This document shows positions 10,137 to 18,068 of a stretch of 34,322 nucleotides of DNA, piece by piece. Each line of letters opens with the position of its first letter. Position 1 is the stretch's first letter. The position numbers and the translations under genes were made by a program. This DNA is from an uncultured Thermoplasmata archaeon. GTDB taxonomy: Archaea > Thermoplasmatota > Thermoplasmata > Thermoplasmatales > Aciduliprofundaceae. The DNA is taken from positions 1-34,322 of the forward strand of contig CAYXLB010000001.1 of NCBI GenBank assembly GCA_964465785.1, given 5' to 3'. The notes under the pieces were generated by a model. The model was not told the DNA's origin. It worked only from the letters and a program-made list of their open reading frames with translations, and made no database searches.

Positions 10137-11204
10137 CTATTCTATCCGCTTTAATATGGAGAGGTAGAATATATCCCCAGCAAGAATGTAGGAACCAAAC
10201 TTCCCACTCCTTAAATATTCTTGGTATTTGCAATTGAAATCGGCAACTTCAAAATTCCCATCTTTCAAAAATTTCTCTATTATCCCCTCCGTCTCTATGG
10301 AGGTGTAGGAGCATACCACATAAACCAAAAAACCATCTTTTTTAACATAATTTTTTGCCTGACCCAAAATTTCCAATTGCATTTGGGCATATTTTTCAAA
10401 TCCCTCCTGATACTTTGCCTCAGGATTCCTGGCTGCGGCACCCACACCACTGCATGGTGCATCTACCAAAACAACATCAAATTCGCCCTGAGGTCTATCT
10501 TGAAATATATGCACCTGCATACCCCATTTCTCAGCCCTTCTTTGCAGGGATCTTAGTTTCCCAGAATTAATATCATAGGCATAAAACTCATTTTCCGAGC
10601 CCAAGGAATGCATGGCCAAGCTCTTCCCACCACTTCCTGCACAATAATCCAAGATTCTTTTCCCAAGGGATGATGTTATTTTTGCCACTATCTGACTTGA
10701 AGCATCCTGTACAATGGCATATCCATCATTAATAAGCGAAGAATACCTTGCAGCAGGATCTGTAATAACTGCACTCTCTGGAATGTATTCCCTAGTCCAA
10801 TATCCCTCCTCCCAGAGTTTTTCCATCGCCTCTTTTCTGCTTATCCTCTTCAGATTTATGCAAAGTGTCGTATCCGGTTCCCTATTTATAATGGGTATGA
10901 ATTCCTCGGGACTCAGAGTTGCAAGCTCCTCGCTCATAGAATACTTTATATGCCTTGGAGCGCCTAAATCGGGCTTTTCCTTAGATAAAAGAATATAATT
11001 TTCCGGGGTTTTTTTCATTCCCCTCTTCTCAAGGATGTAATCATAGTATTTTTTGAAACGCACAACATCGTGCACAATCTCGGCGACCTTGTTTCTCTCA
11101 TTAAAATCCAATCCCGATTTTGGTAATATATCCCTCATTGCCCTAGCCATATTCCCCTTGCGAAGCCATTTTGCAATAACCCTGGCCGCAGTTCTCTCAA
11201 TCAT
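10137..11204 (-). CDS. RsmB/NOP family RNA cytosine-C5 methyltransferase
   Basis: VQDASSQ, LDYCAGSGGKS, VDAPCSGVG (motif IV Cys), YVVCS (motif VI Cys). Confidence 0.9.
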   Translation of the reverse strand: MIERTAARVIAKWLRKGNMARAMRDILPKSGLDFNERNKVAEIVHDVVRFKKYYDYILEKRGMKKTPENYILLSKEKPDLGAPRHIKYSMSEELATLSPEEFIPIINREPDTTLCINLKRISRKEAMEKLWEEGYWTREYIPESAVITDPAARYSSLINDGYAIVQDASSQIVAKITSSLGKRILDYCAGSGGKSLAMHSLGSENEFYAYDINSGKLRSLQRRAEKWGMQVHIFQDRPQGEFDVVLVDAPCSGVGAAARNPEAKYQEGFEKYAQMQLEILGQAKNYVKKDGFLVYVVCSYTSIETEGIIEKFLKDGNFEVADFNCKYQEYLRSGKFGSYILAGDIFYLSILKRIE

Positions 11205-11282
11205 CTTTGTTAGAAAGATGAAGTAAGGTAAAAAACTTTCTCAAAGGGGAAGTTTTAATTACTCATAGGAATTTAGCATCCC

Positions 11283-12329
11283 ATGGGCGAGAGCAGATAT
11301 CAGAAGTTACTCTTTGTGATTCTCTTCAAACCATCCGGAATCATTGCCTTCTTCTCCATATTACTCGGCTTCTTAGGGATATCCCTCTACACATTAATGA
11401 TTGCCTACAATCCATCCCTCTTCTTTGAAATAAGACCATGGTTCATCCCGATTCTTCTTTTATCAATTGGGGCAATTTTTCTATATCTGTCTATCAAATC
11501 CATTGAAAGTGATTCACAGAAGTTCGTGAAAGATATAAAGGAGGAGAAAAAAAGGATTGAAAGGATAATAGAAAGCCTTGAAAATTCAGATATGGAAAAA
11601 TCCCCACTTCCAGATAGCTCCGAGGTTGGCATAAATGACCTCGATATAGAGATCATAGAGCTGGTAAAGGAAAACGGGGGATTCATCCCAATTTTAAAGA
11701 AGGATATTGATGAATCCTCCATATCCTATAAGCAAGCTGTAAAAAGTTTGGCGAAGCTGGAGGTTATGGGGTATTTAAGAATATCACAGGAGGGAAAAAA
11801 TAGGGGGGAGAAGAAGATAATCATAACGGTAAAAGGACTGGAGCTTCTTGAAATGCCGAGGGTTACCTTCATCACAGTTATTCCTGAGGACATCACCCTT
11901 ATGCTAGTCTATGCAAACATCCTTTACAGAAAGGGAGAGTTTGAGACGAGTATAGGAAAATGCTATAATACCATTGAGAGAGCCCTAAAAACCCACCTCA
12001 TCCCAAGCATCGATGATTATATTGAAAAGTGGAACAAGAAGCACAGCGATAGGAAATGGAAGGGAAATAAAACGATGGTCTCGCTCAATTCCCTCTTTAA
12101 TTTTTACAGGGAGAATGTGAATATGGATAAAAATGTTGCAAAATTTGTAAAAAATGCAATAGATTACATAGCGGAGGTGCGCTCCAGATATTCCCATGAC
12201 AAGCCTTCTGAAAAGTATCAGAAGGATGCATATCGTGTTCTAAAACTCACGGAGCTCATACTGGGGATGATGTTTGAGAATCTCAAGGAGCAGGTGGGTT
12301 TGAAATCTGAAAAAATCGCAAACCTTTAG
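11283..12329 (+). CDS. Membrane-anchored protein with coiled coil, wHTH and C-terminal HEPN-like domain
   Basis: Two hydrophobic N-terminal helices, wHTH (SYKQAVKSLAKLEVMGYL...ITVKGLELL), HEPN-like IERALK and RSRYSH (RxxxxH, nt 12180-12197). Confidence 0.7.
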   Translation: MGESRYQKLLFVILFKPSGIIAFFSILLGFLGISLYTLMIAYNPSLFFEIRPWFIPILLLSIGAIFLYLSIKSIESDSQKFVKDIKEEKKRIERIIESLENSDMEKSPLPDSSEVGINDLDIEIIELVKENGGFIPILKKDIDESSISYKQAVKSLAKLEVMGYLRISQEGKNRGEKKIIITVKGLELLEMPRVTFITVIPEDITLMLVYANILYRKGEFETSIGKCYNTIERALKTHLIPSIDDYIEKWNKKHSDRKWKGNKTMVSLNSLFNFYRENVNMDKNVAKFVKNAIDYIAEVRSRYSHDKPSEKYQKDAYRVLKLTELILGMMFENLKEQVGLKSEKIANL

Positions 12330-12347
12330 AGTTTTAGAGATAAATTT

Positions 12348-12355
12348 TTTATATA
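12348..12355 (+). promoter_or_regulatory. TATA box of the rps12 operon
   Basis: TTTATATA upstream of ATG 12393. AGGTGA RBS at 12381-12386. Confidence 0.65.
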
Positions 12356-12392
12356 GGCATCCGTTTAGGTGCCATACTCAAGGTGATGCAAA

Positions 12393-12821
12393 ATGGCCAA
12401 TGGATTGTACACAGCAAGAAAATTAAAGGACGATCGTAAAAAGTTCCGCTGGAGCGATAGGTATTATAAGAGGAGAGTCTTGAGACTCAAGGAAAAGAGC
12501 GACCCCCTAGAGGGCTCTCCCCAGGCAAGGGGAATTGTTATTGAGAAGGTGGGTATAGAGGCAAAGCAGCCCAACTCAGCCATTAGGAAATGCGTTAAGG
12601 TTCAGCTTATTAAGAATGGACGCGTTGTCACGGCATTTGCACCTGGCAATGGGGCCATAAATTTCATAGATGAGCACGATGAAGTGGTTATAGAAGGAAT
12701 AGGAGGAAGATTGGGGAGGTCGAAGGGAGATATTCCTGGAGTCCGTTACAAGGTAATCAAGGTAAATGGCATATCCCTCCTGGAGCTTGTACGCGGAAGA
12801 AAGGAGAAGCCCGTGAGGTGA
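12393..12821 (+). CDS. rps12: 30S ribosomal protein uS12
   Basis: [22 protein letters not shown]. Confidence 0.98.
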
Positions 12822-16959: not shown

Positions 16960-17274
16960 ATGGCTGTCTATAGGGCCAGGATAAGACTAAGCGGCACGGA
17001 CCATAAAAAGGTAGATGAAGTATGCAATCAGATTAAGAGGATTGCTGAAAGAACAGGAGTGGAAATGCACGGACCTATTCCATTGCCCACCAAGAGATTG
17101 GTTGTACCCATTAGGAAGGCTCCCGATGGTGAAGGAAGCGAAACATGGGAGCGCTGGGAGATGCGTATACACAAAAGGCTCATAGATATAGATGCCGATG
17201 AAAGGGCCCTGAGACAGCTTATGCGCATCCAAATTCCAGATGGAATACATATTGAAATCGAGCTCAAATCCTAA
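16960..17274 (+). CDS. rps10: 30S ribosomal protein uS10
   Basis: [32 protein letters not shown]. Start set to ATG 16960 after the GGTGA RBS. Confidence 0.97.
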
Positions 17275-18068
17275 AAATCTTTTAACTCATAGATTTCCTT
17301 TCCATCCTTGTAAACTCTTATTATTCCCTCTGTGGATACGGCAAAACTGATTGCCCTTGTGAGTTTTGTTATTGATCTTGCGGCAAGATGTCTTCCCCCA
17401 TGACCATCCAGAATCCATTCATCAACCAAGAGATTTTTCACATATACACCCGTGGATACCACATACCCATCCTCGTCTATTAGGGTTGCACCATCCATAA
17501 TTGCAAATTCCTTTATGGTGTCAAAATTCTCCTCATTCAAAACATTCCTCATTTCCCTATCAATTCCATTCACGGGATTTGCTATCTTTTGCACAACATA
17601 TTTCATAACATTTTGAGTGTCTCCTACTATGAACAGGGCCCCTGCAGGCGTGCCCTCTCTGCCCTTTTTCACTATTGACATGGATAGCTTTAGCACATTC
17701 TCAACAATCTCCCTATCCACCCTGTCTCCAATCATATCGAGTAGTATGGGGAGCTTCATGAGGGACAAATCAAAAAATAATCTGTGTTCCTCACCCCTTT
17801 TAGAAAATATAACGAGAACCCTATCCTTGGATGCAAGGTAGGAGGCATTGAGGAGATAAAAAATCGTATCCCTTATGAGGGTTAAATCCTCTATATCGGG
17901 ATAGGAGGCATAATCTGAGAATACCTTGATTACATTCCTCTTAAGCAGCATCTGGGCGGTGGGTCTTTTGTTCCTTGGATAAACAACTATAAGGGGCTTA
18001 TCTAAATACTCCCCAACCAATTTCTCTGGATCTTCGCCCATCAATACAACTTTATCAGGCTCTACCAC
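17271..18068 (-). CDS. dacZ: Diadenylate cyclase (DAC/DisA_N domain), archaeal DacZ-like
   Basis: [15 protein letters not shown] motif (IMDGATLI), [15 protein letters not shown]. Confidence 0.82.

What the first reader, a model, noticed from the sequence alone, without database searches (positions are those of the whole stretch)
11283..12329. Membrane-tethered wHTH-HEPN protein with an intact RxxxxH motif: candidate novel stress or defence RNase
Seen: two TM helices (about aa 10-72), a coiled coil (KDIKEEKKRIERIIESL), a MarR-like winged helix (about aa 117-190) and an all-helical C-terminal domain with E232-RALK and R300-SRYS-H305. No nucleotidyltransferase (MNT) antitoxin, CARF domain or cas gene is nearby. 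Established: HEPN RNases need dimerisation of Rx4-6H motifs and act in toxin-antitoxin, abortive infection and CRISPR-linked systems, and the Ire1/RNase L KEN domain is a HEPN derivative. Inference: a one-component system in which membrane perturbation or nucleic acid binding by the wHTH controls dimerisation and RNA cleavage, conceptually Ire1-like. I do not recognise this architecture from described systems.
Basis: partly seen in the sequence, partly recalled or inferred. Interest (0 to 1): 0.8.

Follow-up and report, generated by a model that had tools for sequence, protein, structure and literature searches.

The report
Membrane-anchored HEPN RNase family in archaea
This archaeal gene encodes a protein with predicted membrane anchors, a winged helix and a HEPN-fold domain whose RNA-cutting motif is kept across distant relatives, including Asgard archaea, and it likely works as a stand-alone switch that would cut RNA when a virus or envelope damage is sensed at the membrane.

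Summary
ORF 11283-12329 (348 aa) has two predicted membrane helices, a helical stalk, a winged helix and a HEPN fold (top structural matches are HEPN domains, Z up to 11.2). H305, R300 and E232 are kept in 75, 73 and 73 of 75 relatives, most of them about 20% identical. The family has no Pfam, NCBIfam or PADLOC model. It is patchy: 10 of 21 genomes of the window's own family, 3 of 7 of another family, 15 of 301 of an Asgard phylum sample. It fills variable gene slots that are empty in relatives, and the wHTH-HEPN core carries swappable N-termini (1-4 membrane helices or a soluble domain). Best reading: a single-gene, trigger-activated HEPN RNase, more likely antiviral (0.5) than a housekeeping stress RNase (0.3). 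Defence-island enrichment is weak (4/7 vs 2/13, p=0.08). No activity was tested. Look-ups in the scan's earlier notes found no report of this family.

The parts
11249..11259 (+). TATA/BRE-like element; the T-run starts 30 nt before the ATG (own promoter, leaderless mRNA inferred)
   Evidence: Same motif upstream of the orthologs in L111 and L112; function inferred
11283..12329 (+). Gene for a 348-aa TM-TM-stalk-wHTH-HEPN protein, single match in G000
11331..11402 (+). Predicted membrane helix 1 (aa about 17-40), after a short N-terminal helix (aa 5-15)
11430..11582 (+). Predicted membrane helix 2 (aa about 50-72) continuing as a heptad-patterned stalk to aa 100
11619..11858 (+). Winged helix-turn-helix (aa 113-192), MarR/PadR-like fold, net charge -1 to -2
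   Evidence: VIA Z 8.2 to E. coli MarR 5h3r (rmsd 2.5, 74 aligned)
11874..12290 (+). HEPN domain (aa 198-336)
   Evidence: VIA Z 11.2 sacsin HEPN (rmsd 3.2, 119 aligned), Z 11.1 AF0298 (rmsd 3.3, 117 aligned)
11976..11990 (+). E232-x3-K236 acidic motif in HEPN helix 2
   Evidence: E 73/75; K or R 64/75
12180..12197 (+). R300-S-x3-H305 predicted catalytic motif at the end of helix 283-302
   Evidence: H 75/75, R 73/75; helix boundary
10137..11204 (-). RsmB/F methyltransferase gene, left flank of the variable slot
   Evidence: Pfam PF01189 E 9e-26; slot comparison
12337..12821 (+). Conserved upstream segment and rps12 gene, right flank; the ribosomal cluster keeps its own upstream element
   Evidence: gene name recalled from the sequence

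Best explanation
The gene encodes a membrane-anchored protein with a winged helix and a HEPN-fold domain bearing a conserved R-x4-H motif, which likely acts as a single-gene RNase that stays off until a trigger at the membrane, most likely a viral protein or envelope damage, would realign two HEPN domains and so would cut host tRNA or mRNA and stop growth. Shown by calls: the ORF, the predicted fold, motif conservation, the patchy distribution, variable slots and swappable N-termini. Inferred from HEPN biology: RNase activity, a two-domain active site, tRNA/mRNA targets. Inferred from anatomy: N- and C-termini inside, the membrane hairpin and stalk as sensor and lever, the acidic winged helix as relay or brake rather than DNA reader. 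Least certain: that the trigger is viral.
For: Fold: 12 or 13 of the top 13 VIA rows are HEPN or HEPN-containing chains (one is an unannotated protein), over model residues about 194-340. A distant member, P0037, independently matches HEPN. Motif: H305 38/38, R300 36/38, E232 36/38 among representatives under 50% identical; only 4 invariant columns in a 41-row alignment, two of them E232 and H305. Purifying selection: HEPN pN 0.07 against saturated pS 0.88 versus L111. Accessory behaviour: 10 of 21 family genomes, not found in the one-contig genome G002; the rsmB-rps12 slot is empty in G002, G003, G004 and holds an unrelated gene in G001; the MFS slot used in G001/G003/G004 is empty in G002 and G007; all 3 copies in family f16 sit at the 3' end of tRNA-Leu yet their HEPN domains are not one clade (AU p=0.0001, group named after seeing the tree). 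Modular N-terminus: 2 TM in 50, 1 in 7, 3 in 3, 4 in 2, soluble in 5, truncated in 8 of 75. Some Asgard copies lie near pAgo, AbiTii, Old/GajA and TnpB genes. Precedent for non-toxic single-gene HEPN systems switched on by phage proteins: RAZR and HepS (passages of review PMC13434031), DS-11.
Against: The window holds no other defence gene, and the close clade sits among housekeeping genes. Defence or mobile neighbours in Asgard loci: 4 of 7 against 2 of 13 control regions, one-sided p=0.08; 5 or 6 of 13 for all Asgard loci, p=0.19 or 0.10; not significant, and hand-filtered. The gene has stayed in its slot long enough to saturate synonymous sites, has ordinary GC3 (74th percentile), and its HEPN domain (87-94% identity in the slot clade) is more conserved than neighbouring RsmB (70-73%), which suits a settled cellular role. 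No copy was found in viral contigs, phage or plasmid records with the queries used. Domain packing is not resolved (pTM 0.47). Z of 11 for a helical bundle is under the tool's caution mark of about 13; the HEPN call rests on family consistency plus the motif.
Confidence: 0.5

Rival explanations
1. An envelope-stress RNase without a defence role: the membrane hairpin senses lipid, pH or heat stress and turns on decay of membrane-associated mRNA or tRNA, as proposed in 2013 for bacterial membrane HEPNs.
For: Housekeeping neighbourhoods, long residence and strong HEPN conservation; a fixed neighbourhood in the 4 Hermodarchaeota-titled loci L040-L042, L044; PMC3710099 section 15.
Against: Not found in several near-complete close relatives; at least four different slots; HEPN moved between lineages; defence neighbours in some Asgard loci.
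Confidence: 0.3
2. A membrane-anchored transcription regulator: the winged helix binds DNA, and the HEPN fold serves as a dimerisation or nucleotide-binding domain.
For: MarR/PadR-like fold, Z about 8; membrane-anchored winged-helix regulators occur in archaea (scan note e1-980740, unchecked).
Against: H305 is the most conserved residue of the soluble part; the wHTH is acidic while the HEPN is basic (medians -2 and +4); no conserved neighbour gene that it could regulate; no DUF7343 hit.
Confidence: 0.08
3. An orphan effector of a multi-part system encoded elsewhere (MNT antitoxin, type III CRISPR messenger, or a helicase as in CoCoNuTs).
For: Sensor-wHTH-HEPN resembles CARF effectors and CnuE; a HepT-MNT pair lies about 3 kb from one Asgard copy.
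Against: No partner gene recurs across clades among 22 neighbourhoods examined; no CARF match in Pfam or PADLOC.
Confidence: 0.12

Closest known systems
Membrane-associated HEPN groups of Anantharaman et al. 2013 (DUF4145-TM with WP signature; Abi2/SWT1-TM; HEPN-2TM-Zn ribbon)
   Same: Membrane anchor plus cytoplasmic HEPN with the Rx4-6H motif; the same Ire1-like proposal
   Different: Those are bacterial, have one TM or a different domain order and no wHTH between TM and HEPN; no Pfam DUF4145 hit here
CARF-wHTH-HEPN effectors (Csx1/Csm6 kind)
   Same: Sensor, then wHTH, then HEPN; Csm6 HEPN matches at Z 8.9 (rmsd 4.5, 128 aligned)
   Different: A membrane hairpin and stalk replace CARF; no cas genes nearby
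CoCoNuT CnuE (wHTH-coiled coil-HEPN; PMC11090510)
   Same: wHTH fused to HEPN, with the wHTH proposed as a protein-protein coupler
   Different: CnuE is soluble, has an elongated wHTH and lies in McrBC-helicase operons; none seen here
Single-gene phage-activated HEPN systems RAZR, HepS, Tha, DS-11
   Same: One protein with a sensor module and a HEPN RNase; HepS matches at Z 8.4 (rmsd 3.5, 123 aligned)
   Different: Their sensors are soluble (zinc finger, CBS and others); bacterial; no sequence-level match in PADLOC 2.0, which predates some of them
Ire1 / RNase L KEN RNases
   Same: Membrane tether (Ire1) and a HEPN-derived RNase
   Different: No kinase and no luminal domain here; analogy only, no homology shown outside the HEPN fold

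Membership tests
HEPN superfamily | All-helical HEPN fold | tested here: met
   VIA Z 11.2 (rmsd 3.2, 119 aligned) to sacsin HEPN, top rows nearly all HEPN; Foldseek TM 0.61-0.68 by target to 1ufb, 2q00, 1o3u but E>0.2; Pfam HEPN E 0.011, below cut-off
HEPN superfamily | Rx4-6H at the end of helix 3, polar residue after R | tested here: met
   R300-S301...H305 after helix 283-302; spacing x4 in 48, x3 in 25, x5 in 2 of 75; definition from PMC3710099 passages
HEPN superfamily | Ex3[KR] acidic motif in helix 2 | tested here: met
   E232 73/75; position 236 K or R 64/75
HEPN superfamily | Composite active site at a dimer interface | tested here: inconclusive
   See Tried and rejected
HEPN superfamily | Metal-independent RNase activity | not testable with these tools
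   Needs biochemistry
MNT-HEPN toxin-antitoxin | Adjacent MNT gene | tested here: not met
   Flanks are RsmB and rps12; no adjacent MNT seen in 22 neighbourhoods (only selected ORFs were scanned)
Csx1/Csm6 CARF-HEPN | N-terminal CARF domain | tested here: not met
   The N-terminus is two membrane helices; no CARF hit
CoCoNuT CnuE | Operon with McrBC and CnuH helicase | tested here: not met
   None in the window or among scanned neighbours
DUF4145-TM membrane HEPN (2013 group 1) | Single TM with strict WP signature fused to a DUF4145-type HEPN | tested here: not met
   Mostly two TMs; a W-x-x-P pattern only in the close clade; no DUF4145 hit
Ire1 | Luminal sensor and kinase domain | tested here: not met
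   About 10-aa outer loop, no kinase
Anti-viral defence system | Enrichment in defence islands | tested here: inconclusive
   4/7 vs 2/13, p=0.08; none in the window
Anti-viral defence system | Protection against viruses | not testable with these tools
   Needs virus challenge

The most novel reading that the evidence does not exclude
An undescribed archaeal family, reaching Asgard archaea, in which one wHTH-HEPN RNase core is plugged onto exchangeable sensors, and the two-helix membrane form turns the physical state of the membrane directly into RNA cleavage: a prokaryotic one-protein counterpart of Ire1-type signalling with no kinase or messenger.
Probability: 0.25. Interest if true: 0.85.

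Novelty: new variant of a known kind. Interest (0 to 1): 0.57.

Why it matters
Membrane-triggered HEPN RNases in prokaryotes were proposed in 2013 (PMC3710099); my 8 library searches listed no paper on this architecture. This family gives a compact test case with clear mutants (R300A, H305A, E232A), natural sensor swaps (1-4 membrane helices or a soluble domain) and members in Asgard archaea. If antiviral, it adds a single-gene archaeal defence type that Pfam, NCBIfam and PADLOC 2.0 miss, often outside defence islands. If a stress RNase, it shows membrane-to-RNA-decay signalling in archaea.

Tried and rejected
Homodimer prediction of aa 110-348 with alignment A3: no answer, score 0.01 against a mark of 0.42, controls not folded; no evidence either way. 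Sequencing runs: 4 listed, no RNA holder listed, so expression is untested; DNA contigs of run X1 cover the gene without changes but may be this assembly's source. Sequence search of the PDB with A2: 0 hits at E<=1. Foldseek pdb and viral: no hit at E<=0.001. ESM Atlas: two hits at 0.75-0.76, under the lead mark, for P0001; none for P0037 1-290. No Ire1 or RNase L chain among the 50 VIA rows shown; this does not exclude kinship. Viral contigs (A2, A5), plasmids (P0001), phages (P0037): no match. Own phylum sample: 7 of 301 matched, only G000 and G004 strongly. Swap of the HEPN domain alone: suggested by identities (P0019: stalk+wHTH 62% to L025, HEPN 50% to L025 and 75% to P0018) but not established (AU p=0.07 and 0.20). 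Recent insertion was rejected: same slot in L111 and L112, filled-slot RsmB proteins group together (92/89), synonymous sites saturated. The second Rx4H (R233-H238) was rejected as catalytic: R 28/75, H 27/75. Source organisms and neighbourhoods of the RVPxxH clade and the soluble variants could not be obtained: pattern scans could not be built from those alignments and 10 cluster look-ups gave no names. Whether G000 has a second copy at the MFS slot is unresolved: it falls in a gap between contigs C47 and C135 and is probably empty. The wHTH charge argument has no proper control set of DNA-binding wHTHs (one search gave too few).

Full report
Observation. The ORF at 11283-12329 (+) encodes 348 aa. 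It lies between a divergent RsmB/F methyltransferase and the rps12-rps7-EF2-EF1a-rps10 cluster (names recalled from the sequences). A TATA/BRE-like element 30 nt before the ATG is conserved in two orthologous loci, and the rps12 upstream element starts 8 nt after the stop. The lineage, probably Thermoplasmatota, is my guess from gene content; no call names it. The AlphaFold2 model from a 14-row alignment (pLDDT 77.8, pTM 0.47) and hydropathy give two membrane helices with a loop of about 10 residues, TM2 running into a heptad-patterned stalk to residue 100, a winged helix and a helical C-terminal domain.

Fold. Against 48,161 representative chains the top VIA rows are sacsin HEPN (Z 11.2, rmsd 3.2, 119 aligned), AF0298 (11.1), AbiA (10.2), Roquin (10.1), ST0689, 4nqf, SsR10, Csm6 and HEPN toxins; the winged helix matches MarR/PadR chains at Z about 8. 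These Z values are under the tool's caution mark for helical bundles, but the top rows agree on one superfamily, and the distant member P0037 gives the same result. Sequence libraries barely see the protein: Pfam HEPN E 0.011, below cut-off; PADLOC nothing and NCBIfam one chance-level hit; no Pfam family is shared by more than 2 of 35 members at E<=0.1.

Motif. An Rx4H appears in 12% of random 140-aa windows, so conservation is the test. A profile search of 1.84 billion representatives gave 48 hits. Pooled with genome loci, 83 distinct sequences passed E<=1e-20, of which 75 cover the HEPN domain (8 fragments dropped). H305 is kept in 75, R300 in 73, E232 in 73; among 38 representatives under 50% identity, 38, 36 and 36. 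Placement matches the HEPN definition: motif at the end of helix 3, polar residue after R, Ex3[KR] in helix 2 (PMC3710099 passages). Twenty-five of 75 have a shorter Rx3H. The HEPN part is basic (median +4); the winged helix is not (median -2, positive in 13 of 79) and usually has a short wing. I infer a relay or brake rather than a DNA reader, without a control set.

Distribution. 10 of 21 genomes of the window's family match, including G000; none was found in one-contig G002 or in four other genomes 91-99% complete. In a class sample 11 of 401 matched, 8 strongly, three of them in family f16 (3 of 7). A distant clade lies in records titled Thorarchaeota and Hermodarchaeota; in that phylum 27 of 301 genomes matched, 15 at E<1e-38, five of which were the seed genomes. 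N-termini vary: 2 membrane helices in 50, 1 in 7, 3 in 3, 4 in 2, a soluble region of about 300 aa in 5, truncated in 8. The soluble form is predicted to hold an Ig/FnIII-like sandwich at about 190-285 (Z about 8.5, model pLDDT 60), a lead only.

Slots and history. The rsmB-rps12 gap is empty in G002, G003 and G004 and holds an unrelated membrane gene in G001; it is filled by orthologs in L111 (69%) and L112 (58%; left flank only). Those hosts' RsmB proteins group together (92/89), synonymous sites are saturated and HEPN pN is 0.07, so this is an old, selected insertion. Genus-mates carry 42-44% identical copies between an MFS transporter gene and a small membrane-protein gene, a slot empty in G002 and G007. 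The three f16 copies sit at the 3' end of tRNA-Leu (five of the 15 loci scanned are these three sites). The window's HEPN groups with two f16 copies rather than with genus-mates (100/100), and the f16 trio is rejected as one HEPN clade (AU p=0.0001; group named after seeing the tree). A swap of the domain alone is not established. L027 is frameshifted and L079 split.

Neighbourhoods. The window has no other defence gene among 37 ORFs scanned. Near own-class copies only one HsdR-N gene (L084) was found among selected ORFs. Asgard loci differ: Schlafen-pAgo and PIN (L080), AbiTii and TnpB (L082), Old/GajA (L079), TnpB (L078), a PbeA-like helicase (L077), a HepT-MNT pair (L039); none at L040-L042, L075, L076, L081, L083. 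For 7 loci with controls 40-100 kb away on the same contigs, PADLOC E<=1e-10 after I removed generic hits by hand (methyltransferase, WD40, ABC ATPase, subtilase, aminotransferase, coiled coil, Csa3, oxidoreductase, homing endonuclease) gave 4 of 7 against 2 of 13, p=0.08. Counting the helicase as generic or the homing endonuclease as mobile weakens this further, and for six other Asgard loci only hand-picked ORFs were scanned. The signal is suggestive at best.

Mechanism. Most likely (0.5): a single-gene, trigger-activated HEPN RNase for abortive defence or dormancy, with the membrane hairpin and stalk as sensor and lever. Accessory behaviour, sensor exchange and cross-lineage movement favour defence; long residence, strong conservation and housekeeping neighbours favour a stress RNase (0.3). 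An orphan effector (0.12) or a transcription regulator (0.08) fit less well. That the HEPN domain is an active RNase I put near 0.85, by inference only.

Known and new. Papers seen: PMC3710099 (passages and all of section 15); passages of PMC9519451, bioRxiv 2025.01.08.631726, PMC13405049, PMC11090510, PMC11188069, PMC13434031 and PMC4012209; Tha only as a search listing with the start of its abstract. No supplements were read; those of PMC3710099 and PMC11188069 could list this architecture. Membrane HEPNs with an Ire1-like role were proposed in 2013 for three bacterial architectures, and sensor-wHTH-effector layouts are described for CARF proteins and CnuE. Eight searches listed no paper that I could tie to a TM-wHTH-HEPN family; the library lacks most subscription papers. 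Six look-ups in the scan's notes showed no earlier report of it.

Verdict. A real, apparently undescribed archaeal HEPN family and a new variant of a known kind.

Noticed in passing
L080:3-2552 (-), G728:C10: One ORF joins a Schlafen AlbA_2 domain, an Aga/PNTD-like middle part and a class I short-pAgo domain (PADLOC E 1e-92) in an Asgard-phylum genome, beside a PIN gene and a 1,316-aa STAND-like ATPase.
   Followed up: no
P0024, P0030, P0037, P0049, P0062: Five family members replace the membrane helices with a soluble region of about 300 aa with no Pfam hit and a predicted Ig/FnIII-like sandwich.
   Followed up: partly
L095:698-1366 (-), G001: An unrelated 223-aa multi-pass membrane protein with no Pfam hit fills the same rsmB-rps12 slot.
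   Followed up: partly
L115:1-720, G007:C3: Repeating peptides in chance ORFs suggest a CRISPR array next to the empty MFS slot; no repeat finder was run.
   Followed up: no
L110 (G656:C29:122500-135500): Type I-B cas operon and a type III-D Cas7 gene on the same contig as one Asgard copy, about 45 kb away.
   Followed up: no
L027:1361-2376 and L079:5933-6905: Two copies are broken (frameshift; split ORFs), in line with a dispensable gene.
   Followed up: partly
window 17271-18068 (-): 265-aa ORF right after rps10 that looks like a diadenylate-cyclase-type protein (recalled from motifs, not confirmed by a call).
   Followed up: no
window 11979-11996 (+): A second Rx4H (R233-ALKT-H238) is conserved only in the close clade (27-28 of 75).
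   Followed up: yes
L040:4531-5550 and L041, L042, L044: In Hermodarchaeota-titled loci the gene is always divergent from the same 330-aa gene with no Pfam hit; a possible lineage-specific partner.
   Followed up: no
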